From assembly GCA_000092065.1 (NCBI GenBank), contig CP000585.1: a stretch of DNA of 64,000 bases; one strand, written 5' to 3'. The position numbers and the translations under genes are program-made. The DNA comes from Ostreococcus lucimarinus (lineage: Eukaryota). Of this stretch, positions 19,257 through 64,000 are shown in pieces; position 1 is the stretch's first letter; the number at the start of each line of letters is the position of its first letter. The notes beneath the pieces were generated by a model, which saw only the letters and a list, made by a program, of their open reading frames with translations, was not told the origin of the DNA and searched no databases.

Positions 19257-19347
19257 AATCCAAATTGAAAAGCCGTTAGCCAAGCATCGACTGACTAATC
19301 ATTCCACCCTCCGGCCCGCACACGTCGCCTCGCGCGCCGCGGGCGCC

Positions 19348-22300
19348 ATGCTGGCGCACATCGCGAAAACCGTGAGCGACACGGTGCAGAAAACCACGCG
19401 CGCGCGCGCGTGCGAGCGTTTAAAGCCGTCCGGGACGCTCGCGCTCGACAAACAGACGGGCGCGGTTCGCGCGCTCGGAGTCGTCGACGAACGCCTGCTC
19501 GGCGCGTGCGATGACGGCGGACTGCGTTGTTGGAGCACCACGTCGGGGGCGCTGACGTCGCAAGCGCGCGCGCACGCGGGCGCGGTGACGGCGATGGTGA
19601 CGTCGAAGGATGGGACGCGCGTGACGAGCGCCAGCGAGCGCGGCGACGCGGCGACGCGAGACGCGCGCACGGGCGTCGTGACGATGGAACTCGAAAATGG
19701 CGTCGATGCCGTTGCGCTGTGGTGCCTCGGGATGTTGACGAGCGGAGAGTTGGTGGGAGGGGACGACGTGGGGAGGATTTTCGTGTGGGAGGACGGCGAA
19801 CGGTTTCCAATTTGGCGATTCGCGTCGACGGCCGAGTCGGCGCCGATGCCTGGGAAGGCAAAACGTCTGAAGCCTTCGGAAGGGCCGCCTGATCGCGTGC
19901 ACGCGGTGTCGGGGTGGGTGCATCGTTCGACGGGGAAGGAGTTCGTGGTGAGCGGGAACGGGCATGGGATTCTGAGTCTGTGGACGGTTCGCGTGGGCAA
20001 GCCGGTAGCGGAGTTCGGTCCTGACGACGGCGGGCATCGGGGCGCGATTCACACCGTGTGCGATAACGAAGGCGTGATCGTTACCGGTGGGGCGGATGGG
20101 CGCGTGTTGGCGTGGTACGTCAACGAAGAAGGTCAGCTTCTCGGTCCACCGGAGGAACTCAGCGTCCACGGACATCACACGGGCGCCGTGTTATGCGCGG
20201 CGAGCATCCGTCCCGGCTTTGTGTGCACGGGAGGCGTCGATGGACGCGCGTTGGTGTGGGATATCAAGGCGCGAGCAGTATTATTTGAGTGTCCGGGCAC
20301 GAAATCGGCGGGAGCTGTGCGGTCGCTCGCCTTCGATGGAAATGGTGTGCTTTACGTCGGATGCGCTCTGTCACAAATTTCACGATGGGAATTGCCGAGC
20401 GACGAGTTTCTCAGCTCTCGCAGTCGCGACGAGCTCCCCTTACTAACGCGTAACATGAGCAGCGAAAACATTAGTCAAGCTGTGCCACACTCGGTGAGCG
20501 CGCCGACCCCGAAGCGAGACGTCGCCGCGGAAGAATTGAGTCTCGCAGATACAATCAAGACGCTGGACGCCGTTCGCAAAGAGTGTGAGCGTTTACGAGA
20601 GTCAGACAGGAGTCGCGCATCGAAGGTTATAGGCCTTGAAAAGGAGCTCGTGACCGTGAACAAGTCGCTTGCTAACGTCGGAGAGGAAAATCAGCGACTC
20701 AGGGCCAAGGTAGATTCGATGGCGCCAACGCCGAGCGTTGCGCCGAAGGACGACGAAATCGAGGCGCTGCGCAAGAAGTGCGACAAGATGGAGAACATCG
20801 CTCGTAAGCAAAAGACGAAAATCGAAGAGCTGAAGGGCGAGTTACAATCGGCGGAAAGCTCGCGTGCCGAGGACCAAAAGCGCGCGACAGACGAGCTCGA
20901 GGCGTCGAACGAGAAGCTGGCAGGCCTGCATAAAGAGCTTGAAGAAGCGCTCGCGGGCGCTCAGGGTGAAGGTTTGAGCGTGGAGGACATGATGGCTGCA
21001 GCCGAGAAAGCTTTGCTGAGTCCAGAGCCTGCGACGAGTGAAGCATCCCAGGAAATGATGCGCGAGCTGCATAGCGTGCGGGAAGAATTGCAACTGTCTA
21101 AACAAGACGTCGCGAGTGCGGAGCAGACCATCGCAAAATTGCGCACGCAGCACGATGTGCTCACCGCACGCGCAAAGGAAATAGAGGAACAGAGCCAATC
21201 CCTTTCACAATCACAAGACGCAAAAGTGGCGACGTTACGTGAGGATGTGACATCCCTTCGCGAAAAACTCGGGTCAAAGGATGCGGAATTAGACGATTTG
21301 CGCAAGCAACTCGGCGAAGCGAAGAAGCGAGCCGAAGCGCTCGATAGGGAACGTCTCGAACTCACGGCGCAATGCGAAGAAACATCAAGGCACCATAAAG
21401 ACGTTGACGCATCAAACGCTGAGGTTACAAGAATGCGCGAAAAATTTGAAAACGCAGTCACGAAAGGCAAAGGATTCCAAGAAGAAGGCAAAAAGCTCCG
21501 CGCAGAGCTTGAGGCGAAACACGTGGAGCTGGCCCAAGCTCAGGATGTTTCGACTTCGATGCGGGCTCGCGTGACAGAGCTTATGGCGAGTTTAGACGCC
21601 GCAAACGAGAAAGTCACCGATGGGCTTCGGCTTCTTGCGCAGAAGGAGGAAGAAGTAGCCAGGAGTGCGTCGACATTGAAAACCGTCGAGAATGCGGCGA
21701 AAGAACTCAACACAGCGAAAGCGGAGACAGCCAAACTGCAGCAAAAGTTTGATAACGCGGTCAAGAAAGGAAAAGGATATCAAAGCGAGTGCGGTGCGCT
21801 CACCGCTCGGCTGAAAGAACGCGAGAGCGCGTTGTCGGCATCAAATGCGTCAAAGGCTCAGGTTGAATCACAGCTTGCCGCTGCTGTCGCAGAAATTGAG
21901 CTCGTGCGTTCCGAGCTCGAGACAAGACTTGACGACGTGCAGCGCAATTCCACAAAAGATACCGAAGAACTTAATTCATTGCGCGAGCGCTTGCACGACG
22001 CCGAGGCGCGCCTTCGTGCTGCAGAAGATACGAAGGGCTCCGCCATTGCGGAGCGCGAAGGTAAAATCTCTGCGCTGGAGAAGCAAATTAACGAGTCAGA
22101 TGCGAACTTTGAGCGGATGCGCACCGAACTAGCAGCGCGTGATGAGGAACGCGATCGACTTATATCGCAGATCAAATCGAGCGAAGCGGCCCAGGAGGAG
22201 CTTCAAAAGCTTCGCTCGAGCATCGAGTCATACGAGACGGAAATGGTGTCTCTCAAGACTGCGATAGACACGGCGAAGACAAAATTTGCCAATGCGGTTA

Positions 22301-23322
22301 AGAAAGGGAAAGGATTTCAAGAAGACGCTAATAAACTTCGTGATGAATTAGCCGCGAAAGATGCCGAGCTTGCACATGCCCGCGGCGAGTCAGCTTCGGT
22401 AGACACTCACCGCGCTGAGCTCGCGGCGAGTTTAGATGCTGCGAACGCGAAGATCTCAGATGGCCTTCGCCTTCTTGCGCAGAAGGAAAACGAAATCTCG
22501 GGTCTGGCGGCGGAGTTGAAAGCAGTCCAAAGTCGATGTACTACGCTCGAAGAGGATATCAGCAAGAGAGACGCCAAGAAGAACGATGAAATCGAGCAAG
22601 ATGTGCGGGGACAGCGGTGGCTCGAGGAGCAAGCACGCGCTGCGGCGGAGTCTCAAGTGAGAGATTTGGCGGAGGAGAACGAACGACTGAAGCAAGAAGT
22701 TGCGGCAGCAGCGGCTGCAGCGCAGGACGCGTGGCAAGTTGCGGCGAGCCACGGCGTGCGTCCTGGAGATTCTCGGCCTGTGAGCGAAGTGGGGTCCCCC
22801 GTTCGCGAAGGCTATGGTCATCGAGCACGCTCGCTCTATCAACAACCAACGTATCGAGGTGCCATGTCGATGGTGCACGAAAGGAACGACATGGTTGTAC
22901 CCAGAGAAGACTACGACCGCGTCAAGGAGCGATGTGTAAAATTGAAGAGAGATTTAGAGGCGGCGAAGCAGGCGGCAAAGGAAGCTGTGCAGCAAGTCAT
23001 CAACCGTTTGGAGCTGGAAGTGATGGCCAAAATTCATGCTGAATCTTCCGCGAAAGCCGCAGAAGCGGAATGTGATCGCGCGTGGGCGCACGCAAAAGAC
23101 GCGCTAGCTACGGCGCGCGAGATGCAAAAGCAACCGGCTCGTCAGCTAGCTGTCGCCGAAGCGTCAAGCGTCAAGCCACAGCCACCCCCGGGTACGCGCG
23201 CGGCGGTTGCGATGGAGCGTCAAAACGGTAACGGCGTGGTCGTCATTCGACAAGAACACTTAGCATCGATCGTCGCCGCGCTCCTCTCATTCATCATCGG
23301 AACGTGGTTTGCGAAATTCTAG
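19348..23322 (+). CDS. WD40-repeat N-terminus plus ~800-aa coiled-coil with C-terminal transmembrane tail anchor
   Basis: Begins at the first ATG after the patatin stop; the ORF-track start 18868 overlaps the patatin 3' end in another frame. WD-like blades at aa ~60-480. Long coiled coil containing three copies of KF(E/D/A)NAVKKGKG(F/Y)Q...LLAQKE. Final 20 aa are hydrophobic (IVAALLSFIIGTWFAKF). Confidence 0.6.
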   Translation: MLAHIAKTVSDTVQKTTRARACERLKPSGTLALDKQTGAVRALGVVDERLLGACDDGGLRCWSTTSGALTSQARAHAGAVTAMVTSKDGTRVTSASERGDAATRDARTGVVTMELENGVDAVALWCLGMLTSGELVGGDDVGRIFVWEDGERFPIWRFASTAESAPMPGKAKRLKPSEGPPDRVHAVSGWVHRSTGKEFVVSGNGHGILSLWTVRVGKPVAEFGPDDGGHRGAIHTVCDNEGVIVTGGADGRVLAWYVNEEGQLLGPPEELSVHGHHTGAVLCAASIRPGFVCTGGVDGRALVWDIKARAVLFECPGTKSAGAVRSLAFDGNGVLYVGCALSQISRWELPSDEFLSSRSRDELPLLTRNMSSENISQAVPHSVSAPTPKRDVAAEELSLADTIKTLDAVRKECERLRESDRSRASKVIGLEKELVTVNKSLANVGEENQRLRAKVDSMAPTPSVAPKDDEIEALRKKCDKMENIARKQKTKIEELKGELQSAESSRAEDQKRATDELEASNEKLAGLHKELEEALAGAQGEGLSVEDMMAAAEKALLSPEPATSEASQEMMRELHSVREELQLSKQDVASAEQTIAKLRTQHDVLTARAKEIEEQSQSLSQSQDAKVATLREDVTSLREKLGSKDAELDDLRKQLGEAKKRAEALDRERLELTAQCEETSRHHKDVDASNAEVTRMREKFENAVTKGKGFQEEGKKLRAELEAKHVELAQAQDVSTSMRARVTELMASLDAANEKVTDGLRLLAQKEEEVARSASTLKTVENAAKELNTAKAETAKLQQKFDNAVKKGKGYQSECGALTARLKERESALSASNASKAQVESQLAAAVAEIELVRSELETRLDDVQRNSTKDTEELNSLRERLHDAEARLRAAEDTKGSAIAEREGKISALEKQINESDANFERMRTELAARDEERDRLISQIKSSEAAQEELQKLRSSIESYETEMVSLKTAIDTAKTKFANAVKKGKGFQEDANKLRDELAAKDAELAHARGESASVDTHRAELAASLDAANAKISDGLRLLAQKENEISGLAAELKAVQSRCTTLEEDISKRDAKKNDEIEQDVRGQRWLEEQARAAAESQVRDLAEENERLKQEVAAAAAAAQDAWQVAASHGVRPGDSRPVSEVGSPVREGYGHRARSLYQQPTYRGAMSMVHERNDMVVPREDYDRVKERCVKLKRDLEAAKQAAKEAVQQVINRLELEVMAKIHAESSAKAAEAECDRAWAHAKDALATAREMQKQPARQLAVAEASSVKPQPPPGTRAAVAMERQNGNGVVVIRQEHLASIVAALLSFIIGTWFAKF

Positions 23323-54705: not shown

Positions 54706-56037
54706 TCAATAACGTTCGAGAAGCTCTCGCAAATACTCCGCGCGATCCGCGAGCGCGCCCGCATTCGTCGTCACCCCGTAGCCATCCATCAGCTCTTCCG
54801 CTTGCCAGAGCTCGCGCAAAAGCTCCCAGTACTCACCGCCGTTGTCGGACAGAAACTCACACGCATCGGTCCAGTCGGGCTCTTCCTCGCAATACGCGCG
54901 AATACGTTTGAAATCCAGTTCGTGAATGTCGACGAAGACGCGACGAAGCGCCTCAGCCGACGTCGCGTCCGACGGCCCGTAAGCCGCGAGCGACGCGAAC
55001 ACGAGCTCGGTGAGCACCAGCGCCATGGCTTTCAGATCAACGACGACGCTTGTTGGCGTGCAAAGCGTACTACACCCAAAATTAATCAGCCTGACTTCCA
55101 GATCGTCCGCCTTTGTGTCTAAAAACGTGCTGCACAAAAACGTCGACCCGTCCAACGCCCCGTGCGCCACGCCCCTCTGATGCGCGTACCACACCCCCTT
55201 CAAGCACTGCTCGAACGCTCTTCTCACGTACCTCGCCCGCGCTTTCTTTGGTTGGTCTTGCACGCGCTGCACCGGAGGCCAAAACTTCGTCTCAGACTTC
55301 CCTTCCTGCTTCGCTCGCGCGTACTCGCTCAGCCTTCGCACGCCGTGCCACTCCTGCGCCGTCCACAAGCTCCTAGTCCCATCACCGTCGATCGAGGCCG
55401 ACGCGAAGTACCCAACCAGTCTCGCGATCGGTAACGCTTTTTGTGGCAGCATCCCCGGCCCTCGACCGTACTCATCCACCTCAATCTCCACGTCGTCGTC
55501 CGCCAGCAGCCGCTCGTACGCCCGCACCTCCGTCTCCGCGAACGCCGCCGCGCGTTCACCCGCGTACTCCTTCAGCATCACCGCGCCTCTGTCGGCGTTC
55601 CTCGAAATCGGCGGTACCGACGGTGTGTGCACGTACCTCCCCGCGTACACGTTCACCCTCGCCGCGCCGTCGTCGACCTCCTCCTCGACGCTCGACGCCG
55701 CGACGCTCTCCGGCGCGCCGCCGTCCGCGCTCGCGCGCCACGCGAACGCGCTCGCGCTCGGCCGCTCCGTGCGCAGCGTCACCGATCCCAGGCGCGTGGT
55801 GATTTCAAAATCGTCCGCCTCGGCGCGTTCGAGCGCGCTCCGCGTCGTCGTCGTCGGGTTCGTTCGACGTCCTCGCGCGCGCCCGTCGTGGATAGCGCGT
55901 CGACTTCGCGCGCGCGTTCGCGCGCCGGCGCGCGGCGCGCGCTCGAGCGCCGCGCGCGCGCGCACGACGCGAGCGTTCGCGCGCATGTCCCGCGCGCGCC
56001 GGTCGTTCGCGACCGCGCGCGTCGAGGAATGCCGCAC
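54706..56037 (-). CDS. Protein-kinase-like domain protein (probably pseudokinase or atypical kinase) with N-terminal targeting-like extension
   Basis: Degenerate catalytic-loop region VWYAHQRGVAHGALDGSTFL and DFG-like LINFGCS. No canonical Gly-loop/VAIK seen. Confidence 0.35.
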   Translation of the reverse strand: MRHSSTRAVANDRRARDMRANARVVRARAALERAPRAGARTRARSRRAIHDGRARGRRTNPTTTTRSALERAEADDFEITTRLGSVTLRTERPSASAFAWRASADGGAPESVAASSVEEEVDDGAARVNVYAGRYVHTPSVPPISRNADRGAVMLKEYAGERAAAFAETEVRAYERLLADDDVEIEVDEYGRGPGMLPQKALPIARLVGYFASASIDGDGTRSLWTAQEWHGVRRLSEYARAKQEGKSETKFWPPVQRVQDQPKKARARYVRRAFEQCLKGVWYAHQRGVAHGALDGSTFLCSTFLDTKADDLEVRLINFGCSTLCTPTSVVVDLKAMALVLTELVFASLAAYGPSDATSAEALRRVFVDIHELDFKRIRAYCEEEPDWTDACEFLSDNGGEYWELLRELWQAEELMDGYGVTTNAGALADRAEYLRELLERY

Positions 56038-56245
56038 TCGTCGACGCGGTTCGTTTCATGTCCCCGAAAACGCCCGCGGTGACGTCGGCGCCCGCGCGTC
56101 GCGACGAGCGCGCGCGCGAGGGCGAACCCGTGGAGGTGTTCGCCGCGCACTCGCCCTACGACGCGCTGTGCGTGCTCGTGGCGCTCGTTCTCGGGCTGTT
56201 TCGAGCGGCGAGCGCGCGGTGCAGCTGCTGAATCGAGTCGAAACG

Positions 56246-57805
56246 ATGAAGCGCGAAGACGCGCTGCGCGCGACGAGCGCGACGCTGCGCGCGCGATCCG
56301 TGCACGAAGCTCGCGTGCGACGATTGAACGACGCGCGCGCGAGGGAGGCGCCGGATGGGGCGTACGTGTTGCTCTGGGCGCAGAGCGCGCAGAGGACGCG
56401 CTGGAACGAGGCGTTGGAGTACGCGGTCGACCGGGCGAACGATAGACGCGCGCCGCTCGTGGTCGTGTTTTGCTCGACGGCGACGTACCCGGAGGCGAAC
56501 GAACGACACGTTGGGTTCATGTTGGAGGGGTTGTGTGAGATGCGGGCGACGCTCGGGAAGCGGCGAATCGCGTTCGAGGCGTTCGCGTGCGCGCCGCCGG
56601 AGGCGGCGCTGGCGGCGAGCGAACGAGCGATCGAAGTGGTGACGGATTCGGGGTATTTACGGTTACTTCGCGCGTGGCGGGATGACTTGGCGCGGAGGGC
56701 AACGTGCGCGGTGACGGAGATCGAGACCGAGTGCGTGGTGCCGCAGTTGGGGCAGGGGGCGCGACGCGCGGAACCGTCGGCGGCGACGTTTCGGCCGAAG
56801 GTGCTGGCTCGCGTGCGGGAGTTCACTAGAAACGCGTGCGCCGTGCTGCCTTACATCGCGGGCGAACTGGATGACGCGACGCGCGCGATTTTTGAGAAGA
56901 CTGTCGACAAGTACGAGCGGCTGCCGCTCGAGCGAGGCGTCGACGCGTGCTTGAACGTCCTCGACGCTTACGGGCTAAAGCGAGATCCCAGCTGTCCTCG
57001 CGTGTCGTCTCACGTCGGTGGAGAGTCTCGAGCCAAGGCGAAGCTCGATGTGTTTTTGACGAAAAACATGCTCTCGCGCTATCATCATTCGCGTAACGAT
57101 CCGTGTTTGTGTTTGCAGAGTCATCTGTCGCCGCACATTCACTACGGGCAAATCTCCGTCGTCGAAGTGGCTCGCAAAGCGCTCGCGTTTCGCGACGCAC
57201 ACGCCGATGAAGCCGACATCTGTGCAAGCGTGGATGTTTTCCTCGACGAACTCATCGTACGAAGAGAGTTGGCGGTGAATTTTGCGCTGCGAAACCCAAA
57301 GTATGATTCTTACGACGGGCTTCCCGAATGGGCGCGAGAGACGCTGGAGAGGCATCGAGGTGATCGCCGCGAATGGACGTATACACTCGAGGAGTTTGAA
57401 CACGGCCGAACGCACGATAAGTTATGGAATGCATCGCAACGAGAGCTTGTGTCCAGTGGTAAACAACACAATTACTTGCGAATGTACTGGGGAAAGAAAA
57501 TCCTCGAATGGAGCTCGACGCCAGAAGAGGCTTGGCGTATCGCGATGACGCTCAACAATAGATATTCACTCGACGGTCGAAATATGGTTTCTTTGACCGG
57601 CGTGGGATGGTGTTTCGGCCTGCACGACCGTGAATTCCACGAGGCGAGCATAACTGGCACGATTCGACGCTTTTCTGAATCTGGCATGCGCAAGAAGTTC
57701 CCAGCCGGAATAAAGGGCTACCTCGAGCGTTGGGGCGACGACGGAGGGACGAAACGCCAACTGCGACTCGAAGACGTGTTCGGCAAACGATCGAAATCGA
57801 AATAG
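56246..57805 (+). CDS. PHR: Class II CPD photolyase (deoxyribodipyrimidine photolyase)
   Basis: Start at internal ATG (MKREDAL), ~520 aa. N-terminal LLWAQSAQRTRWNEALEYAV...RAPLVVVFC. C-terminal FAD-binding signature HNYLRMYWGKKILEWSSTPEEAWRIAMTLNNRYSLDGRNMVSLTGVGWCFGLHDREF, diagnostic of class II photolyases. Confidence 0.8.
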   Translation: MKREDALRATSATLRARSVHEARVRRLNDARAREAPDGAYVLLWAQSAQRTRWNEALEYAVDRANDRRAPLVVVFCSTATYPEANERHVGFMLEGLCEMRATLGKRRIAFEAFACAPPEAALAASERAIEVVTDSGYLRLLRAWRDDLARRATCAVTEIETECVVPQLGQGARRAEPSAATFRPKVLARVREFTRNACAVLPYIAGELDDATRAIFEKTVDKYERLPLERGVDACLNVLDAYGLKRDPSCPRVSSHVGGESRAKAKLDVFLTKNMLSRYHHSRNDPCLCLQSHLSPHIHYGQISVVEVARKALAFRDAHADEADICASVDVFLDELIVRRELAVNFALRNPKYDSYDGLPEWARETLERHRGDRREWTYTLEEFEHGRTHDKLWNASQRELVSSGKQHNYLRMYWGKKILEWSSTPEEAWRIAMTLNNRYSLDGRNMVSLTGVGWCFGLHDREFHEASITGTIRRFSESGMRKKFPAGIKGYLERWGDDGGTKRQLRLEDVFGKRSKSK

Positions 57806-57863
57806 TATCATCAGTAGTCACATTTTGAATCATCATGTTGCAAACAATTGTATATGCTAAGCA

Positions 57864-59171
57864 TCACGCCGCGGCCGTCGTCGAGGTATCGAGGCGGTGT
57901 CTATCTGCTATTTCCGCTGCGCTTTGCGCGACCAAGGCGCGCAAATACGCTTCGACCGAACATCTTCCGGTCGAACCGACGGTGCTGTACGCCAAAAACG
58001 GGAGCTTTCTGAGAGCGCGACCGCTCAGTCCGTCGCAAGCTTCGGCAGCTTCGCGCAAAGTCAGCGACACCGGGCAACCTTTCGCGACACCATCGTCGAA
58101 TTCCATCGGCTCAGCGCCCTGCACCAAATCGCGACGAATGAGCTCAAGCACGCAGGAGCGCAAAATCTCGTACCTCGCTCGCATGCCGGGCGGGCCGATG
58201 TAGCATTTGATATCCGCGCGATCGACAAACGCTAGATCGATCGCTTCGGTGATGTTGCTCGTCGTTAGCACGATGGCGTTCGGTCTAGACTTCAGCGCGT
58301 CAAGCTGCGTGAGCAGAGCGTTGACGACGCGAATCGCGTCGCTGGGTTCCGAACCGTTCGCCGCACTCTTTCTCGCCGCAGCCAGACTTTCGACTTCATC
58401 GACGAGCACGAAAACCAAAGAATCTTCGTCTTCTAATAACTCTTGTATCTTACCGAACAGTTTACTCACCAACTTTCCGCTCTCGCTAAACCAACGACTG
58501 AAGAGCGAATGCGCGTTCACCTCCACCAACACGCTGCTCGAGTATATATGATTAAACCTGATGGACAACCGCTGCGCCAACGCCTTACACATCGTCGTCT
58601 TCCCCGTCCCCGGCGGTCCATGCAACAACACCACGCGATTCCACGAGATGAGCTGCGCGTCCACGCCGCGTTCACCGAACAACAGCGCCGCCGTCGCGTA
58701 CCGCAGCAGTCGCGTCTTCACCTCGTCGTCGTCGAAAATCAAAGACTCCCACGCGCCCTCAAAATCCACACACGGCAGGCTCCACTCCGTGTACGTCGCG
58801 ATCTCGTCTCCTTCCCCGATCTCCTCCCCCGGCCCGTCCTCGCACAGCCCGTACGCGCGCGTCGTCAGCGCGCACTGCCACGCCAACAACCGTCGCGTCC
58901 CGCGCCCCTTCCCCTCGTCCCCGTCCAGCCACTCCACGTCCGACACCCACACCTTATCGCACTGCGCGCGCAAAAACGCCCCCGCCTCGCACTTCCAATC
59001 GCTCTCGTCCCCGTCCACGAGCGCGCCCGCGCGCGCGTCGTCCACGCACGCCTTGCGCTCGAGCACGAACGTTCGAACCGCCGCCTCGATGGCGTCGTTC
59101 GTCGCCGTCGACCGCGCGCGCCGTCGCGCGTCGACGTGCACGCGCGCGACGATCGCGTCGCCGTCGCCCAT
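57864..59171 (-). CDS. TRIP13: TRIP13/PCH2 AAA+ ATPase (pachytene checkpoint protein 2)
   Basis: Walker A LLHGPPGTGKTTMCKALAQRLSIRF and Walker B VFVLVDEVESLAAARK. Long near-identical blocks to human TRIP13 (SLFSRWFSESGKLVSKLFGKIQELLEDEDSLVFVLVDEVESL...EPSDAIRVVNALLTQLD...VDRADIKCYIGPP...GLSGRALRKLPFLA). Start at internal Met MGDGDAIVARVHV. Confidence 0.8.
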   Translation of the reverse strand: MGDGDAIVARVHVDARRRARSTATNDAIEAAVRTFVLERKACVDDARAGALVDGDESDWKCEAGAFLRAQCDKVWVSDVEWLDGDEGKGRGTRRLLAWQCALTTRAYGLCEDGPGEEIGEGDEIATYTEWSLPCVDFEGAWESLIFDDDEVKTRLLRYATAALLFGERGVDAQLISWNRVVLLHGPPGTGKTTMCKALAQRLSIRFNHIYSSSVLVEVNAHSLFSRWFSESGKLVSKLFGKIQELLEDEDSLVFVLVDEVESLAAARKSAANGSEPSDAIRVVNALLTQLDALKSRPNAIVLTTSNITEAIDLAFVDRADIKCYIGPPGMRARYEILRSCVLELIRRDLVQGAEPMEFDDGVAKGCPVSLTLREAAEACDGLSGRALRKLPFLAYSTVGSTGRCSVEAYLRALVAQSAAEIADRHRLDTSTTAAA

Positions 59172-59314
59172 CGCGCGCGCGTCGCGGTCGTTCGTCGCGC
59201 GCGTCGCGTCGTGCGGGCGTCGCGCGTCGCGCGTCGCGACGCGTCCCGTGTCTCGACGAGTCACGACCCATCGATCGAGGTGTTAATTACTCAAAATAAG
59301 CGAATAGGAATCGT

Positions 59315-59324
59315 AATATAAAGA
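59315..59324. promoter_or_regulatory. TATA-like element (taatataaag) in AT-rich island of the TRIP13 / RWP-RK divergent intergenic region
   Basis: It sits in the only AT-rich ~70-bp stretch (59281-59350) of an otherwise GC-rich 420-bp divergent spacer. A promoter role is inferred. Confidence 0.25.
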
Positions 59325-59590
59325 CGTGATATTTCACATACATTTTTAACTCCAGACGAGAAGCGCGGACGAACCGATGACGACATGTCGGCGCGACGTC
59401 CCGTCCCGGGCGCGACGCGAAAACCGCGCGATACTGCGCGGTCATAGGCGACCGCGCCCCCACACGCGCGCGCGCGGACGCGCGCCGCTCGCGCCGGGTT
59501 TGACCGCCGACGAGGCCCGCGCGACGCGAGGACAACGACATCGTCTTCGCGCGCACGCGACGAGGGCCGAACGACGGCCGCGCGCGACGG

Positions 59591-60767
59591 ATGTCGGCGG
59601 TGGAGACGACGACGAACACCGGGCTCCCGATTCGGATGCCGAACGACGCGCGCGGCGCGACGCACGCGATCGATCCGCTGAGCGACGTGCACACGGCGGT
59701 GAAATCGGCGACGGGGACGAAGATCATCGCGCTGATCGACGTGAGCTCGAGGTTCGCGCTGCCGATCGCGCAAGCGGCGAAAGAGGTGCGGGCGAGATTA
59801 GATTTCCGGAGGATCGCGGCGCGGCGCGCGACGAGTTTCGAGAGACTGACGCGCGAATGGGTCGACGCGGAAACAGCTGGATGTGTGCGTGACGGTGCTC
59901 AAGTCAACGTGTCGCGCGTTCGGCATCATGCGATGGCCGTATCGAAAGATGCGAAAACTGAACACTATGATTAAGCAGCTCGAGCGGTCGGCGAGAAACG
60001 CCGCCGAGGAAAACATATTACATCATAGAATGAAGCGACTTGAAGCGTGTCGACGTGCGAGAGATTTGTTGGTGCTAGAAGCAGAGGCGAACGCACGGGC
60101 GCGAATCGGAAAACCCGCCTCGCAGCAGTCCGCCAAGGCGGAGATAGCGTCGACGGGCGCGCGCTACGATTCCAGCGGGCGACTGGGCAACTTTAAGGAT
60201 CCTGGATACGCTTTCGATACCGACCACAAGGGTTATGCGCTGCATGAGGCGATGCGGAAGATGATGGAGACTGAGGGGTTAGATACGATCGGTCGTTCTG
60301 GTCACGTGGATGTCGAATCTGACCCACTGAGCGAACTCGCCTCGCAGGTTACCGCCGTGCAAGAGCGTTTCGTGCGACGGCCAAATCGCAACAAAAGACA
60401 GCTACCAACCAGATGCCCGGAAGAGATGGCACTACATGAATTCGTCATGGGCAATCCGGGACTCGAGGCAATGGCTTCGTTGACCGCGCGATTGCGCCGG
60501 CAAAAGGAATCGAAGAAACAGACGTCTGAGCACGCCGACGACGCGGACGGCGAAGTCGACATCGATGGGGACGACGGGAAGCAAATTGCGTGGATCGTAA
60601 GCTCTCAAAGTCCAGCCTATACCGTCAATGTCCGTCCAAGTAACCCAACGGCGCGAATTCCAGACGTCTTGGTAGAGGAACGCTCTCGGCGAGAAGCCAC
60701 CTCTCCGCTCGAGCCCAGTCTAGCTCTGTTCCCGTTAAATGTGTCAGCAATCCACAGTGCGGCTTGA
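59591..60767 (+). CDS. RWP-RK domain transcription factor (MID/NLP/RKD family), 2 exons with the RWP-RK domain split by an intron
   Basis: Exon 1 59591..59785 ends ...IIALIDVSSRFALPIAQAAKE (donor GTGCGG). Exon 2 59877..60767 (acceptor aacAG) begins LDVCVTVLKSTCRAFGIMRWPYRKMRKL. Joined, they give the canonical RWP-RK core (compare [36 protein letters not shown]). The two halves lie in different frames in the ORF track. Confidence 0.7.
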
Positions 60768-60994
60768 CACTTGTTACTCAGTATTGCATTATTGTAGAAC
60801 CGCTTAGTATTTTATGTTATATTTATGTACCACGCGAAGTAACTCCCCTTTGCCGCGTATGCCTAGCGAGCGTGCTATCCGCAGTCGCGAAAGGGTCCAA
60901 ACCCTTCGCCGCCACCGCGCGTTCTCAGACGTCCGCGCGCGACCTCTCACGAGCCAAAGAGTGAACCGCGCGAAAGGTCACCGAGTTAGTCGCC

Positions 60995-63900
60995 ATGGGT
61001 AAGACTCCGGCGCAAGAGAACCGCCTGCGCGCGAAGAAGCAAGGGATGTCTCACGAAGACGTCAAAAAAGAGCAAGCCGCCGACGCGCGAAAGATCAAGG
61101 ATCTCGCGAACAAAGACGCGACGTTCGGGATGACGAAAGGAGCGGCGATGAATCGTAAGCATGAAGTTGCCATGCAACGGTTGCGGGACATGAATGACCC
61201 GACGACGGAACTCGGGAAAGCGACGCTCAGGGCGGCGAAGAAGAAGGCCAAGGAGCAGCAAGAGTTTTTGTTGCGAACGAAGGGCATAGACGTGAAACAA
61301 CCGGAATTACAGCCAGGAGTGGACCCGAAGACGGTGCTTTGCGAGTTTTTCAAGCACGGTTGCTGCGCGAAGACGGCGGATAAGTGCAAGTACTCGCACC
61401 AGTTGGATATCGCGACGCGGCAGCAGAAGCGAAGCGCGTTCGAGTTGCCGAGCGAGGACTCCATCGAGATGTGGGATCAGAAAAAGCTCGAAGCTGTCAT
61501 CGCGCGAAAGCACGGGCAGGAAGCGAACACAAACAATGAAACGACGATCGTGTGTAAGCATTTCTTGGATGCGGTTGAGAAGAAGCTTTATGGATGGTTT
61601 TGGCACTGCCCGGGCGGTGCGGACTGCAAGTACAAGCATAAGCTGCCGCCGGGTTTCGTGTTCAAGAGCGAGCTTCGCGAGAGATTGCTCGAAGAAGCTC
61701 GCGCGAGAAAGACCGACCAAGACATTCTACGCGAGAAACTGATCGCGCTGAAGAAGAGCGGGAAGAACACGACGCCGATGACGCTGGATGTGTATTTGGA
61801 GTGGAAGAAAGAGCGCGTCGACAAGATCAAAGCCACTGTGGAGGCTTCGAGGGAGGAGCGCATCAAGAACAACTTGCTCACGGGGCGTGAGATTATTGAA
61901 CAACAGCAGGGTGGAGTCGAGGCGGCGGTCGATGCCGGTGCGAGCGCCGGAGATGACGAAATTGCTCGATTGATGAAGGCGCGCAGAGAGGCGGACGACG
62001 AGGCAGAGCGCAAAGCCGCTGAAGAAGCTGCTGAAAACCTTGCTCGCGCGAAGAACTTGGGTGATCTTTACAACATAGAGATGTTGCCAGATGAGACCGA
62101 CGACTTCGCTGATCTTGAAGAGGAAGAAGACAACTTCGAACCGCCCGAGGGCTGGACTCCAGACGCTGTCGCTCCGGGTGGCGACGGTGGTCAAGACGAA
62201 GCCGCAGCAGTGGAATCGGCGGAACAACCGGATATCAACGAAAAGAAGGCTCGTCGAGAAGCCGAACTCAAGGCTATGGAAGAGGAGGGCATCAAGCTCG
62301 TGCAAAAGACGACGAGAAAGGACAAAGAGGAAGAGCTATTCAAGCCCGCGGTTGAGATCCCGGACGAGGCGTTGGGCGACGGCGAGATGGATCCGAAGAA
62401 GCTCGGTGAAATGATTGCGGCGAAGCGTGCAGCCGAAGAAGCTGAGCGAACGAAACATCTTGCCGATATGGCGGAGGAAAGGGAGCGAAAAGACGCCGCT
62501 AAGGCGGCAAAGAAGGCCGAACGGGAAGCCGCACGAGCGGCGAAGAAGAAGAAGAAGAAGGGTGACGACGAAAATGACGACGTGACGACCATCGAGGCAG
62601 CCCTTGGCAACGTTGAGCTCGAAGAGACTGGAACATCGATGAAACGCATGTCTACTGGTGTGTTGGCGTCTCGTCCCACCGCACGTGATATCAAGATTAT
62701 CAACTTCTCCATGGGTATGGGTGGTCGCGAGCTCATCAAAGACTGCGACATCGAAATCACAATCGGAAGAAGATACGGTTTACTCGGTCAGAATGGCTGC
62801 GGTAAAACAAACTTTCTCGAGTGCTTGGCTCGCCGAGAAGTCCCAATCCCGGATCACATTGATTTGTATCACTTGCGTGAAGAAGCTCTTCCGAGCGAAC
62901 GATCGGCGATTCAAACCGTCATCGATGAAGTTCAAGCTGAGATGGAACGTCTTAACAAGTTTGAACTGCACATTCTCGAAACTACCGGCCCAGATGACGA
63001 ACGTTTGGAGCTTATTTACGACCGACTAGAAGAGATCGATCCTACTACGTTCGAAGCGCGTGCATCTGAGCTTTTGCACTCTCTCGGTTTCTCCCAAACC
63101 ATGATTCATCGCCCAACGGCGGACATGTCTGGCGGCTGGCGGATGCGTGTCGCGCTTGCCAAGGCGTTGTTTGCCCAGCCCACTCTTTTGCTGTTGGACG
63201 AGCCAACGAATCACTTGGATCTCGAAGCGTGCGTGTGGCTCGAACACTACTTGGGACAGTACAAAAAGTGTCTCATAATCGTTTCTCACTCGCAAGATTT
63301 CTTGAATGGCGTCTGTACGCACATCATTTGGTTGACGCAGCAAAAGCTTACATACTACACCGGTAACTACGATACATTCCAGAAAACCGTGAACGAGAAC
63401 AACATCGTGCAGCAAAAGAAGTACGAAAAGGAGCAAGCTGACATCGCGCACTTGCAAGAATTCATCCGCTCGTGTGGTACGTACTCGAACATGCGCAAAC
63501 AAGCCGAATCGAAGCAAAAAATTATCGACAAGATGATGGCCGCAGGTCTCACACCGCCGGTCGCCAAAGAGCACGATTTCAAGTTCGACTTCCCCGAGTG
63601 TCAAAAAGTTCCGCCTCCCGTGCTTCCGTTCGCGAACGTGTCGTTCTCGTACAATGGTAAGAAGGAGGACTACTTGTACGAAGGGTTGGAGCTCGGCGTC
63701 GATTGCGACAGTCGTATTGCGTTGGTGGGCCCGAATGGTGCCGGTAAATCCACTCTTTTAAAGCTCATGACTGGCGAACTTTCGCCGAGTGTGGGTACGG
63801 TCGATAGACACCCGGGTCTGAGCATCGGTAAGTATCATCAGCACTCAGTCGATGTGCTTAACAAGGCGATGACCCCGCTGGAATTTTTCATGGCTGAATA

Positions 63901-64000
63901 TCCCAATAACCTCAAATTCAAGCGTGAGATGGAAGAGTGGCGTGCATACTTGGGGCGCTACGGCGTCAGCGGGCGCATGCAAACGCAGAAAATTGGCGAG
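60995..64000 (+). CDS. ZC3H15/DFRP1 (Tma46-like CCCH zinc-finger, DRG-binding) fused in-frame to an ABCF2/Arb1-type ABC-F ATPase; 3' partial (runs off the window)
   Basis: ATG 60995 after an in-frame TGA at 60962. I translated 1002 codons to position 64000 without a stop; the ORF track omits it because no stop lies in the window. The first ~330 aa are ZC3H15: two CCCH fingers (CEFFKHGCCAKTADKCKYSH; CKHFLDAVEKKLYGWFWHCPGGADCKYKH) and a DFRP region (TLDVYLEWKKERVDKIKA...). After a K/E-rich linker the frame is near-identical to ABCF2: STGVLASRPTARDIKIINFSMGMGGRELIKDCDIEITIGRRYGLLGQNGCGKTNFLECLARREVPIPDHIDLYHL; signature MSGGWRMRVALAKALFAQPTLLLLDEPTNHLDL; second NBD Walker A LVGPNGAGKSTLLKLMTGEL. 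Confidence 0.7.
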   Translation, partial: MGKTPAQENRLRAKKQGMSHEDVKKEQAADARKIKDLANKDATFGMTKGAAMNRKHEVAMQRLRDMNDPTTELGKATLRAAKKKAKEQQEFLLRTKGIDVKQPELQPGVDPKTVLCEFFKHGCCAKTADKCKYSHQLDIATRQQKRSAFELPSEDSIEMWDQKKLEAVIARKHGQEANTNNETTIVCKHFLDAVEKKLYGWFWHCPGGADCKYKHKLPPGFVFKSELRERLLEEARARKTDQDILREKLIALKKSGKNTTPMTLDVYLEWKKERVDKIKATVEASREERIKNNLLTGREIIEQQQGGVEAAVDAGASAGDDEIARLMKARREADDEAERKAAEEAAENLARAKNLGDLYNIEMLPDETDDFADLEEEEDNFEPPEGWTPDAVAPGGDGGQDEAAAVESAEQPDINEKKARREAELKAMEEEGIKLVQKTTRKDKEEELFKPAVEIPDEALGDGEMDPKKLGEMIAAKRAAEEAERTKHLADMAEERERKDAAKAAKKAEREAARAAKKKKKKGDDENDDVTTIEAALGNVELEETGTSMKRMSTGVLASRPTARDIKIINFSMGMGGRELIKDCDIEITIGRRYGLLGQNGCGKTNFLECLARREVPIPDHIDLYHLREEALPSERSAIQTVIDEVQAEMERLNKFELHILETTGPDDERLELIYDRLEEIDPTTFEARASELLHSLGFSQTMIHRPTADMSGGWRMRVALAKALFAQPTLLLLDEPTNHLDLEACVWLEHYLGQYKKCLIIVSHSQDFLNGVCTHIIWLTQQKLTYYTGNYDTFQKTVNENNIVQQKKYEKEQADIAHLQEFIRSCGTYSNMRKQAESKQKIIDKMMAAGLTPPVAKEHDFKFDFPECQKVPPPVLPFANVSFSYNGKKEDYLYEGLELGVDCDSRIALVGPNGAGKSTLLKLMTGELSPSVGTVDRHPGLSIGKYHQHSVDVLNKAMTPLEFFMAEYPNNLKFKREMEEWRAYLGRYGVSGRMQTQKIGE

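What the first reader, a model, noticed from the sequence alone, without database searches (positions are those of the whole stretch)
57864..60767. RWP-RK transcription factor with intron-split DNA-binding domain, divergently paired with TRIP13/PCH2, next to a class II photolyase
The RWP-RK core can only be reconstituted by splicing out 59786..59876, a 91-nt GTGCGG...AG intron in phase 0. The joined sequence ...FALPIAQAAKE|LDVCVTVLKSTCRAFGIMRWPYRK matches the family consensus across the junction, so the intron is strongly supported and a simple ORF caller would miss the gene.

RWP-RK factors of the MID/RKD clade specify mating type or gametes in green algae and land plants. Its immediate neighbour, sharing a ~420-bp divergent promoter with one AT-rich island, is TRIP13/PCH2, a meiotic HORMAD-remodelling ATPase. 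A sex- or meiosis-related gene pair under a shared control region is worth a look in organisms where sexual cycles are cryptic.
Basis: partly seen in the sequence, partly recalled or inferred. Interest (0 to 1): 0.6.

Follow-up and report, generated by a model that had tools for sequence, protein, structure and literature searches.

The report
Annotated Ostreococcus RWP-RK gene beside TRIP13
This is a real, correctly spliced RWP-RK transcription-factor gene of the marine green alga Ostreococcus lucimarinus that is already in the public annotation, and its position next to the meiosis/checkpoint gene TRIP13 looks like ordinary conserved gene order, not a dedicated sex-gene module.

Summary
The window is Ostreococcus lucimarinus CCE9901 or a near-identical strain. 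Removing 59786..59876 (91 nt, GT..AG, phase 0) gives a 361-aa protein 100% identical to XP_001417754.1, so gene and intron are already annotated. Six public cDNA-type assemblies lack exactly those 91 nt. They also fix the transcription start (59462) and poly(A) site (~60841). The same intron position occurs in three other Ostreococcus-like lineages and in Micromonas, where a transcript confirms splicing.

The protein is not NLP-type, having no GAF or PB1 domain. It does not group with volvocine MID or land-plant RKD(A). It belongs to a separate non-NLP subfamily shared with Micromonas, Cymbomonas and streptophyte algae. The published Mamiellales MID candidate is a different gene, in the low-GC region of chromosome 2. 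This locus has genome-typical GC and GC3.

Photolyase, TRIP13, RWP-RK and ABCF form a conserved Mamiellales block. The head-to-head TRIP13/RWP-RK arrangement is broken in Micromonas. The AT-rich island differs between near-identical strains. No evidence supports functional coupling. Interest is low.

The parts
56246..57805 (+). Class II CPD photolyase CDS (519 aa), tail-to-tail with TRIP13
   Evidence: PF00875, 50.7 bits. TIGR00591 phr2, 398 bits over profile 2-452 of 453, which is below NCBIfam's cutoff of 550. Adjacent to TRIP13 in all Mamiellales loci examined.
57864..59171 (-). TRIP13/PCH2 AAA+ ATPase CDS (435 aa from the ATG at 59171; stop included)
   Evidence: PF00004, 87 bits, and PF23242 TRIP13 lid, 76.6 bits. 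Walker A GPPGTGKT, Walker B DEVE and the pore-loop motif FSRWFSESGKLV are visible in the translation. Named relatives are PCH2. The cluster holds the partial O. lucimarinus record XP_001418001.1.
59172..59461 (.). Spacer between the TRIP13 start codon and the RWP-RK transcription start (290 bp)
   Evidence: TSS from cDNA contigs. The TRIP13 TSS was not determined. The flanks are conserved and the centre is hypervariable between close relatives.
59280..59353 (.). AT-rich island, polymorphic and not conserved
   Evidence: Identical in ten 99.6-99.7% identical metagenome contigs. Replaced by a different ~150-nt sequence with a (CCGA)5 repeat in L027, which is 99.6% identical elsewhere. Absent from L001. 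Unique within the window.
59443..59457 (+). 15-mer CATAGGCGACCGCGC at -19 to -5 of the RWP-RK TSS; candidate core-promoter element
   Evidence: Single exact copy in the window. Exact copies at the equivalent place in L001 and in L006, whose surrounding DNA is only ~73% identical. A function is inferred, not shown.
59462..59590 (+). RWP-RK 5'UTR (129 nt)
   Evidence: Five cDNA contigs start at 59461/59462 after non-templated GGG. L016 carries the template-switch oligo tail AACGCAGAGTACGGG.
59591..59785 (+). RWP-RK exon 1 CDS (65 codons), ending ...FALPIAQAAKE (first half of the domain)
59786..59876 (+). Spliceosomal intron: 91 nt, GTGCGG...CTGAC...AACAG, phase 0
   Evidence: Absent from six cDNA assemblies. 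Same position in L001 (97 nt), L006 (98 nt), L004 (182 nt) and Micromonas L009 (~105 nt), with transcript support in Micromonas. Retention shifts the frame and stops at 59974. Not a repeated element.
59877..60767 (+). RWP-RK exon 2 CDS (296 codons plus stop): LDVCVTVLKSTCRAFGIMRWPYRK..., helical extension, fast-evolving C-terminal region
   Evidence: dN/dS against L001 is 0.13 for the first 80 codons and 0.88 for the remaining 216.
59726..59960 (+). Span encoding the Pfam RWP-RK domain (residues 46-93), interrupted by the intron
   Evidence: AlphaFold2 model of residues 38-148: mean pLDDT 91.7, helices at model residues 11-15, 22-28, 33-42, 50-68 and 73-105.
60768..60841 (+). RWP-RK 3'UTR (~74 nt) up to the poly(A) site
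   Evidence: Poly(A) tails follow ...CACGCGAAGT in L015 and L016.
60995..64000 (+). Downstream neighbour: CCCH/DFRP_C (Tma46-like) N-terminus fused to an ABCF ATPase (runs off the window)
   Evidence: PF16543, 35.2 bits, plus ABC_tran x2 and ABC_tran_Xtn. Immediately downstream of the RWP-RK gene in every locus where the RWP-RK gene was seen.

Best explanation
The locus holds an ordinary, expressed, two-exon nuclear gene of Ostreococcus lucimarinus for a non-NLP RWP-RK transcription factor. It is already annotated as XP_001417754.1.

**Shown**
- Its mRNA starts at 59462 and carries one 91-nt phase-0 intron that splits the DNA-binding domain. It is polyadenylated near 60841.
- The intron position predates the Ostreococcus/Micromonas split.

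**Inferred mechanism**
- The protein most likely acts as a sequence-specific DNA-binding regulator. A helix-turn-helix-like unit (helices around ...PIAQAAKE / VCVTVLKSTCRAF) would be followed by the RWPYRK loop and a long two-helix extension that probably mediates dimerisation.
- The rapidly evolving C-terminal 216 residues would carry effector or partner contacts. Short conserved islands such as DPGYAFDT-H-GYALHEAM and EFVMGNP are candidates for these contacts.
- This mechanism rests on the predicted structure and on what is known of the RWP-RK family.

**Classification**
The protein belongs to an ancient subfamily with three marks: an N-terminal domain, a CVTVLK...RWPYRK core, and a downstream NPNS-AHLKLGK-type motif. 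That motif is degenerate in Ostreococcus. The subfamily is shared with Micromonas, Cymbomonas, Chlorokybus, Mesotaenium, Netrium, Closterium and Chara. It is distinct from NLP, from MID and from land-plant RKD(A).

**Neighbourhood**
Adjacency to TRIP13 reflects a conserved Mamiellales microsynteny block (photolyase, TRIP13, RWP-RK, ABCF) in a very compact genome. Each of the two genes most likely has its own proximal promoter, separated by a variable spacer.

**Target genes**
These are unknown. I judge nutrient or life-stage-dependent regulation in ordinary cells more likely than a mating-type determinant.
For: **Gene model and splicing**
- The model is identical to the public record.
- Pfam domain over the junction.
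- cDNA contigs with a template-switch oligo and poly(A) tail lack exactly the intron.
- Spliced 361-aa forms sit on 38 and 28 contigs in public assemblies, so expression is readily detected.
- The intron position is conserved in L001, L006, L004 and Micromonas. All have GT..AG and a CTGAC/CTAAC branch site, and none can be read through.

**Subfamily placement**
- Best full-domain relatives and their names.
- They have no GAF_NLP or PB1 domain.
- Neighbour-joining tree with reference domains from PMC7399023 Table S2: the subfamily is recovered in 127/200 and 157/200 bootstraps and NLP is exclusive in 200/200. The subfamily joins MID in 0-5/200 and RKD(A) in 12-28/200.

**Protein features**
- AlphaFold2 pLDDT 91.7, all-helical.
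- dN/dS 0.13 for the domain and 0.88 for the C-terminus.

**Synteny and locus properties**
- Synteny across loci.
- Genome-typical GC and GC3.
- Variable central spacer.
- About 5 of ~26 neighbouring ORF pairs in this window are head-to-head (my count).
Against: - No functional data of any kind. Targets, DNA motif and dimerisation are all inferred.
- The subfamily clade has only moderate bootstrap support. It was assembled from best hits to the query, which favours monophyly. The tree is distance-based on 58-96 columns.
- The head-to-head arrangement with TRIP13 is kept in all Ostreococcus-like lineages sampled, including a distant one (L004/L005). Some selective retention cannot be excluded.
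- One RNA-derived assembly (L012) runs continuously from photolyase through TRIP13 into the spliced RWP-RK gene. Both genes are therefore transcribed in the same sample, and their transcripts may overlap.
- I could not determine with the tools which chromosome the 847,696-bp record is.
Confidence: 0.8

Rival explanations
1. Sex/meiosis module. The RWP-RK factor is a gametogenesis regulator, for example the autosomal partner of the mating-type-locus RWP-RK, analogous to volvocine VSR1 pairing with MID. It would be co-regulated with PCH2/TRIP13 from a bidirectional promoter during a cryptic sexual cycle.
For: - RWP-RK factors repeatedly control gamete or mating-type programmes in green lineages, and VSR1 is an autosomal RWP-RK that partners MID (PMC10629530, PMC11655435).
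- The head-to-head arrangement with TRIP13 is kept in four Ostreococcus-like lineages.
- The C-terminal region evolves fast, with dN/dS 0.88, as many reproductive proteins do.
- Both genes are transcribed in one RNA sample (L012).
Against: - The arrangement is not head-to-head in Micromonas.
- The centre of the intergenic region, including the AT island, is not conserved even between near-identical strains.
- Photolyase and ABCF are equally conserved neighbours, so synteny alone explains the adjacency.
- TRIP13 also serves the mitotic spindle checkpoint (established knowledge), so it is not a meiosis-only marker.
- The protein does not group with MID.
- Spliced transcripts are common in bulk public assemblies, which argues against expression confined to a rare stage.
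Confidence: 0.1
2. Nitrogen-response regulator. The factor works like NIT2/NLP in controlling nitrate or nitrogen-status genes, without the NLP sensor domains.
For: - Nitrogen control is the other well-established RWP-RK role (PMC4620153, PMC11291829).
- Another O. tauri RWP-RK, ostta14g01760, responds together with nitrate-assimilation genes (PMC4855317).
- Expression is readily detected in bulk samples.
Against: - No GAF or PB1 domain.
- The domain is more distant from NLP/NIT2 than from RKD-type domains.
- The gene is not near nitrate-assimilation genes in this window.
- The literature points to other RWP-RK genes for this role in Mamiellales (PMC4855317, PMC4620153).
Confidence: 0.15
3. 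Mating-type determinant. This gene is itself the Mamiellales MID equivalent.
For: It is an RWP-RK gene in a strain (CCE9901) regarded as candidate MT- (PMC8557840).
Against: - The published candidate is a different gene, in the low-GC chromosome-2 region, and is MT- specific (PMC8557840, PMC5498103).
- This gene lies in normal-GC DNA with normal GC3.
- It has orthologues in every Mamiellales lineage sampled.
- It shows 0.3-0.45% divergence among ten environmental contigs.
- It does not cluster with MID.
Confidence: 0.02

Closest known systems
XP_001417754.1 / ABO96047.1 / UniProt A4RXH9, 'RWP-RK domain-containing protein', Ostreococcus lucimarinus CCE9901
   Same: Identical over all 361 residues, so the same exon-intron model. 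On the same 847,696-bp record as the TRIP13 entry.
   Different: Nothing in the protein. The public record carries no functional or subfamily assignment. The neighbouring TRIP13 record (XP_001418001.1) is partial at 304 aa, whereas the window supports 435 aa.
Orthologues and subfamily members: Micromonas RWP-RK (UniRef A0A7S0KRC2), Cymbomonas KAK3282819.1, Chlorokybus Chrsp17S02558, Mesotaenium ME000748S09284, Netrium, Closterium CAI7840833.1, Chara GBG69372.1
   Same: N-terminal RWP-RK domain with a CVTVLK...RWPYRK core plus a helical extension. They are the best full-domain matches and cluster together. Micromonas shares the intron position and the ABCF neighbour.
   Different: The Ostreococcus protein has lost the NPNS-AHLKLGK signature, reading EAEANARARIGK instead. 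The C-terminal regions are unrelated. No member has a known function.
Volvocine MID (CreMID, VcaMID1m), the minus-dominance / sex determinant
   Same: Non-NLP RWP-RK factor with an RWPYRK motif.
   Different: MID is about 150-165 aa with a C-terminal domain and lies in the mating-type locus. This protein is 361 aa with an N-terminal domain and lies in normal-GC DNA. It groups with MID in 0-5/200 bootstraps.
Mamiellales mating-type-locus RWP-RK (ostta02g01710; called ostta02g04300 in one paper), the published MID candidate
   Same: Same protein family and the same group of organisms.
   Different: A different gene. It is on chromosome 2, in the low-GC region, and is MT- specific (PMC8557840, PMC5498103, PMC10540734). 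I could not obtain its sequence for direct comparison.
Land-plant RKD(A) factors (AtRKD1-5, MpRKD, PpRKD)
   Same: Short non-NLP RWP-RK proteins. They are the nearest land-plant domains by distance (MpRKD 0.51 against NLP 0.62). Angiosperm RKD-type proteins occur among the top 150 matches.
   Different: RKD(A) has a C-terminal domain with RWPHRK and a KRLRQACFK-type tail. Joint clade support is only 12-28/200.
NLP/NIT2 nitrate regulators
   Same: The RWP-RK DNA-binding domain.
   Different: This protein has no GAF_NLP or PB1 domain. The NLP clade excludes it in 200/200 bootstraps.
Volvocine VSR1 (autosomal RWP-RK that homodimerises or pairs with MID)
   Same: An autosomal RWP-RK factor in an alga that also has a mating-type-locus RWP-RK. 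This is an analogy only.
   Different: VSR1 has a C-terminal domain and a long N-terminus (PMC10629530).

Membership tests
RWP-RK transcription factor family (Pfam PF02042) | RWP-RK domain scoring above Pfam's gathering threshold | tested here: met
   72.3 bits against 29.3, profile positions 2-49 of 49, in one stretch across the splice junction.
RWP-RK transcription factor family (Pfam PF02042) | RWPxRK motif preceded by a helix-turn-helix-like unit and followed by a helical (zipper-like) segment | tested here: met
   RWPYRK at residues 84-89. The AlphaFold2 model (pLDDT 91.7) has helices at 22-28 and 33-42 before the motif and at 50-68 and 73-105 after it. This is a prediction only; Foldseek found no solved structure at E<1.
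RWP-RK transcription factor family (Pfam PF02042) | Sequence-specific DNA binding and transcriptional activity | not testable with these tools
   Needs DAP-seq, EMSA or a reporter assay.
NLP (NIN-like protein) subfamily | N-terminal GAF-like nitrate-responsive domain (PF22922) and C-terminal PB1 domain (PF00564) | tested here: not met
   RWP-RK is the only Pfam hit at E<=0.01. A true NLP-like control, P0254, does show both domains in the same kind of scan.
NLP (NIN-like protein) subfamily | Domain clusters with NLP domains ([20 protein letters not shown] type) | tested here: not met
   The NLP clade excludes it in 200/200 bootstraps. Distance to NLPs is 0.62-0.63 against 0.40-0.50 to its own subfamily.
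MID / RKD(C) mating-type determinants | Domain groups with volvocine MID | tested here: not met
   0/200 (58 columns) and 5/200 (96 columns) bootstraps.
MID / RKD(C) mating-type determinants | Located in a non-recombining, haplotype-specific mating-type region (low GC, low GC3, present in one mating type only) | tested here: not met
   Window GC is 60.3%, equal to the published genome value of 0.60. GC3 is 0.67, within the 0.59-0.79 range of neighbouring genes (PMC8557840). Orthologues occur in all sampled lineages. Ten environmental contigs are 99.6-99.7% identical, although they were retrieved through one exact TRIP13 protein, which biases toward one haplotype.
MID / RKD(C) mating-type determinants | Small protein (~150 aa) with a C-terminal RWP-RK domain | tested here: not met
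   361 aa, with the domain at residues 46-93. MID sequences are in PMC7399023 Table S2.
Land-plant-type RKD(A) | Domain groups with AtRKD/MpRKD/PpRKD and carries their C-terminal extension | tested here: not met
   Joint clade in 28/200 and 12/200 bootstraps. The extension differs. The tree method is weak, so this is not a strong exclusion.
Spliceosomal intron | GT..AG boundaries and a branch-site-like CTRAC near the 3' end | tested here: met
   GTGCGG...GAGACTGACGCG...AACAG.
Spliceosomal intron | Absent from mature mRNA | tested here: met
   Six cDNA-type contigs lack 59786-59876 exactly. One carries a template-switch oligo and two carry poly(A) tails.
Spliceosomal intron | Position conserved in orthologues while the sequence and length drift | tested here: met
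   Lengths of 91, 97, 98, 182 and ~105 nt at the same phase-0 site. The interior is more divergent than the exons.
TRIP13/PCH2 AAA+ ATPase | AAA+ core with Walker A/B motifs and the TRIP13-specific C-terminal lid | tested here: met
   PF00004, 87.1 bits. PF23242, 76.6 bits against 27. The motifs are visible in the translation.
TRIP13/PCH2 AAA+ ATPase | TRIP13 N-terminal substrate/adaptor-binding domain (PF23563) | tested here: inconclusive
   23.3 bits, below the cutoff of 27.
TRIP13/PCH2 AAA+ ATPase | Closest named relatives are PCH2/TRIP13 | tested here: met
   50-59% identity to plant and algal 'pachytene checkpoint protein 2 homolog' entries.
Class II CPD photolyase | Full-length match to the phr2 model | tested here: met
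   TIGR00591, E 8.9e-119, profile 2-452 of 453. The score of 398 bits is below NCBIfam's prokaryote-tuned cutoff of 550.
Co-regulated bidirectional gene pair | Head-to-head arrangement conserved across the clade | tested here: not met
   Kept in Ostreococcus-like lineages. In Micromonas L008/L009 the genes are on the same strand, ~5.8 kb apart, with photolyase and another gene between them. No RWP-RK was found within the 13-kb L002/L003 locus (~6 kb either side of TRIP13).
Co-regulated bidirectional gene pair | Conserved shared cis element in the spacer | tested here: not met
   The centre of the spacer, including the AT island, exists in three unrelated versions among close relatives. The only conserved element found sits at the RWP-RK TSS.
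Co-regulated bidirectional gene pair | Correlated expression | not tested
   No expression matrices are available here. The only relevant fact is that both genes are transcribed in one RNA assembly (L012).

The most novel reading that the evidence does not exclude
The autosomal RWP-RK factor could be the Mamiellales counterpart of volvocine VSR1. In that role it would be a gametogenesis regulator that dimerises with the mating-type-locus RWP-RK of chromosome 2. In Ostreococcus it would be wired to PCH2/TRIP13 through overlapping divergent transcription, giving a handle for inducing and detecting the never-observed sexual cycle of these picoalgae.
Probability: 0.08. Interest if true: 0.6.

Novelty: already known. 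Interest (0 to 1): 0.2.

Why it matters
**For annotation**
- The published two-exon model of XP_001417754.1 is confirmed by cDNA, with mapped transcript ends.
- Prokaryote-style gene calls in metagenome catalogues truncate this gene to exon 2.
- The neighbouring TRIP13 record appears to be incomplete.

**For biology**
- The gene should not be mistaken for the Mamiellales MID candidate.
- It represents a deep non-NLP RWP-RK subfamily shared by prasinophytes and streptophyte algae, and no member of that subfamily has a known function.
- If any member turned out to act in gametogenesis, it would help the search for sex in picoplankton. Nothing found here points specifically that way.

Tried and rejected
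- **Word-indexed homologue search, full-length protein:** only five Ostreococcus-like hits, none named in that output.
- **Same search with a subfamily alignment:** only short, mostly unnamed fragments. Useless for classification.
- **PDB sequence search and Foldseek against PDB:** no RWP-RK structure and no significant fold match.
- **Rfam and tRNA scans around the locus:** nothing.
- **Repeat search and BLAST of the intron and the AT island against the window:** only CG-rich low-complexity matches. The intron is not an introner-type repeat and the AT island is unique.
- **First impression that L001 showed a sharp divergence boundary (photolyase 95-98% against TRIP13 82% protein identity):** rejected. 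DNA identity is 94-98% throughout TRIP13. The low protein identity probably reflects small indels in that assembly.
wrong. The contig I had read (L007) is a spliced transcript, and the genomic loci do contain the intron.
- **Key reviews (Chardin 2014, Sakuraba 2022) and the supplements of PMC8557840:** not held. The RKD(B)/RKD(C) labels and the chromosome-2 coordinates could not be checked.
- **Chromosome number of the 847,696-bp record:** could not be established.
- **Pfam scan of all 142 aligned top hits:** Only the nine longest were scanned.

Full report
**Source and identity**

The window is about 60% GC and densely packed with genes. That record lies on an 847,696-bp sequence, which also carries the partial TRIP13 entry XP_001418001.1. 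The window is therefore O. lucimarinus CCE9901 or a near-identical strain. The gene, with this intron, is already in the public annotation.

**Checking the observation**

- GT lies at 59786-59787 and AG at 59875-59876. The intron is 91 nt.
- Exon 1 CDS (59591-59785) is 195 nt, so the intron is in phase 0.
- The spliced protein matches Pfam RWP-RK over profile positions 2-49 of 49 in one stretch (72.3 bits, E 2.9e-20). Exon 2 alone gives 41.3 bits over positions 24-49. The read-through ORF gives nothing.
- If the intron is retained, the frame shifts and terminates at 59974.
- TRIP13 (57864-59171, minus strand, 435 aa) has the AAA core and the TRIP13-specific lid. Its named relatives are PCH2.
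- The photolyase (56246-57805) matches the class II model TIGR00591 end to end.
- The two start codons are 419 bp apart.

One point is overstated. ORF callers do not miss the gene. They call exon 2 as a 292-aa RWP-RK protein (P0001).

**Direct evidence for splicing and transcript ends**

The exact 361-aa protein is encoded as an uninterrupted ORF on many public contigs. I fetched six of them: five Logan assemblies of SRR28369xxx runs and one ENA assembly. They are 99.7-99.8% identical to the window and lack exactly 59786-59876.

- One contig begins with the template-switch oligo tail AACGCAGAGTACGGG followed by ACACGCG. Four others begin with GGG followed by ACACGCG or a near-identical variant. 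This places the transcription start at 59462.
- Two contigs end in poly(A) after ...CACGCGAAGT, so the poly(A) site is near 60841.
- The mRNA therefore has a 129-nt 5'UTR and a 3'UTR of about 74 nt.
- I infer that these contigs are cDNA from these features. The run metadata were not available.

**Conservation of the intron**

The same phase-0 position (...AAKE | L-CVTVLK) is interrupted in three other lineages:

| Locus | Relation to the window | Intron length |
|---|---|---|
| L001 | relative, 95% DNA identity | 97 nt |
| L006 | more distant Ostreococcus-like lineage | 98 nt |
| L004/L005 | distant Mamiellales lineage | 182 nt |

All three have GT..AG and a CTGAC/CTAAC branch site, and none has a length divisible by three.

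In Micromonas, genomic loci L008/L009 carry an intron of about 105 nt (GTGAGA...CTGAC...CCAG) at the same place. It is absent from a transcript contig (L007) and from an MMETSP transcript-derived protein. The intron therefore predates the Ostreococcus/Micromonas split. It is not a repeated element.

**Classification**

The protein has no GAF_NLP or PB1 domain. An exhaustive profile-free search found 2,536 relatives. The best full-domain matches outside Ostreococcus share three features:

- an N-terminal domain;
- the core FHLPINDVARKLG-CVTVLKQRCRE-GI-RWPYRKVRKLD;
- a downstream ETR-FLL-NPNS-AHLKLGK motif.

They come from Micromonas, Cymbomonas, Chlorokybus, Mesotaenium, Netrium, Closterium and Chara. 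The longest of them have RWP-RK as their only Pfam domain.

I built neighbour-joining trees with reference domains from Table S2 of PMC7399023, which holds the Koi et al. 2016 set. The bootstrap results were:

| Grouping | 58 columns | 96 columns |
|---|---|---|
| Subfamily monophyletic | 127/200 | 157/200 |
| NLP clade excludes it | 200/200 | 200/200 |
| With MID | 0/200 | 5/200 |
| With land-plant RKD(A) | 28/200 | 12/200 |

The method is crude and the subfamily set was chosen by similarity to the query, so I treat this as 'not MID, not NLP, probably its own lineage'. A published table lists five RWP-RK genes in O. lucimarinus, one NLP and four RKD-type (PMC11291829). Authors working on other prasinophytes likewise could not identify MID orthologues (PMC6731263, PMC13213038).

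**Relation to the mating-type locus**

The Mamiellales MID candidate in the literature is an MT- specific RWP-RK gene, ostta02g01710, called ostta02g04300 in one paper. It lies inside the 450-650-kb low-GC region of chromosome 2. That region's boundaries are defined by a 9-17% GC drop, and its genes have GC3 about 20% lower than background (PMC8557840, PMC5498103, PMC10540734).

This locus looks different:

- The window has 60.3% GC, the genome value.
- GC3 is 0.67 for the RWP-RK gene and 0.77 for TRIP13, within the 0.59-0.79 range of their neighbours.
- The orthologous Micromonas loci have 64% GC.
- Ten environmental DNA contigs are 99.6-99.7% identical over 57000-61500. This retrieval is biased, because they were found through one exact TRIP13 protein.
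- The 95%-identical relative L001 is evenly diverged across 14 kb, not locally.

**The gene pair**

- Photolyase, TRIP13, RWP-RK and a DFRP_C-ABCF fusion gene are neighbours in all Ostreococcus-like loci.
- In Micromonas L008/L009 the order is TRIP13(+), photolyase(-), an unknown gene(-), RWP-RK(+), ABCF(+). TRIP13 and RWP-RK are on the same strand, about 5.8 kb apart.
- In the M. pusilla CCMP1545-like L002/L003 no RWP-RK was found within the 13-kb locus, about 6 kb either side of TRIP13.
- The invariant adjacency is RWP-RK with ABCF, and TRIP13 with photolyase.
- The AT-rich island (59280-59353) is identical in ten near-identical contigs. In L027, which is 99.6% identical elsewhere, it is replaced by a different ~150-nt sequence with a (CCGA)5 repeat. 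It is absent from L001.
- The only conserved non-coding element I found is the 15-mer CATAGGCGACCGCGC at -19 to -5 of the RWP-RK TSS. It is present exactly in L001 and in L006, where the flanking DNA is about 73% identical.
- Roughly 5 of ~26 adjacent ORF pairs in this window are head-to-head (my count), so the arrangement itself is common.
- TRIP13 also acts in the mitotic checkpoint (established knowledge), so it is not a purely meiotic marker.
- One RNA-derived assembly (L012) runs from photolyase through TRIP13 and the spacer into the spliced RWP-RK gene. Both genes are therefore transcribed in that sample, and their transcripts may overlap. This is not evidence of co-regulation.

**How it probably works**

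An AlphaFold2 model of residues 38-148, built with 22 aligned domains, is confident (mean pLDDT 91.7). It is all-helical.

- Short helices lie at model residues 11-15, 22-28 and 33-42.
- The RWPYRK segment follows, then two long helices at 50-68 and 73-105.
- The splice junction falls at the end of the 22-28 helix.
- No solved structure matches it.

Against L001, the first 80 codons of exon 2 give dN/dS 0.13 and the remaining 216 codons give 0.88. A few islands in the C-terminal region are conserved out to L006, namely DPGYAFDT-H-GYALHEAM and EFVMGNP-LE-MA.

My reading, which is inference, is a dimeric helix-turn-helix-type DNA-binding factor with a fast-evolving effector or partner region. 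It is expressed in ordinary populations, because spliced forms are common in public assemblies. Its targets are unknown.

**Verdict**

The gene is already known. The sex-related framing is not supported but is not strictly excluded. Interest is low.

Noticed in passing
window 60995-64000 (runs off the end); also L002-L009, L011, L017-L026: The downstream neighbour is a single ORF. It fuses a CCCH zinc-finger / DFRP_C (Tma46/ZC3H15-like, DRG-regulator) N-terminus to a two-cassette ABCF ATPase of about 1,100-1,150 aa. The fusion is called in all Mamiellales loci fetched. I do not know whether this architecture has been described.
   Followed up: partly
window 59443-59457; L001 9538-9552; L006 129-143: The exact 15-mer CATAGGCGACCGCGC is conserved just upstream (-19 to -5) of the cDNA-defined RWP-RK transcription start in three Ostreococcus lineages, although the surrounding DNA has diverged to ~73% identity. 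It may be a core-promoter or initiator element.
   Followed up: partly
window 59280-59375; L027 ~120-330; L001 ~9420-9500: The centre of the TRIP13/RWP-RK spacer exists in at least three unrelated versions among strains that are 95-99.6% identical elsewhere. These are the AT-rich island, a (CCGA)5-containing segment and a GC-rich segment. It is a local indel hotspot.
   Followed up: partly
window 60117-60767 (RWP-RK C-terminal 216 codons): This region evolves almost neutrally against L001 (dN/dS 0.88), compared with 0.13 for the domain region. A few conserved islands persist to L006 (DPGYAFDT-H-GYALHEAM, EFVMGNP-LE-MA). This is a single pairwise comparison with an assembly that may contain errors.
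   Followed up: partly
L009 9270-9584, 9674-9778, 9854-9998 (Micromonas orthologue): The Micromonas orthologue has two further introns. One follows the third codon (MPK|KRG, ~315 nt) and one follows RWPYRKV (~145 nt). There is also a 59-nt in-frame indel polymorphism in an Ala/Gln-rich repeat.
   Followed up: partly
window 57864-59171: The public O. lucimarinus TRIP13 record in the same cluster is partial (304 aa), whereas the window has an intact 435-aa ORF from the ATG at 59171. ORF callers extend it to 466-468 aa from an upstream GTG at 59264, which is probably spurious.
   Followed up: partly
window 14772-19256 and 18868-23322 (+): Two very long plus-strand ORFs (1,494 and 1,484 aa) overlap by ~390 nt in different frames. 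This pattern could mean one ~2,900-aa gene interrupted by an intron, like the RWP-RK gene.
   Followed up: no
window 54706-56037 (-): A 443-aa ORF lies head-to-head with the photolyase, ~210 bp apart. It has no Pfam hit at E<=1e-4. Its region aligns at ~71% DNA identity in L004. Function unknown.
   Followed up: no
window 55625-59321, several frames: Long ORFs on the strand opposite to, or overlapping, real genes (for example 58443-59321 +, 59291-59773 -, 55441-56082 +) are rich in Arg, Ala and Pro. They look like by-products of the CG-rich composition, not genes.
   Followed up: no
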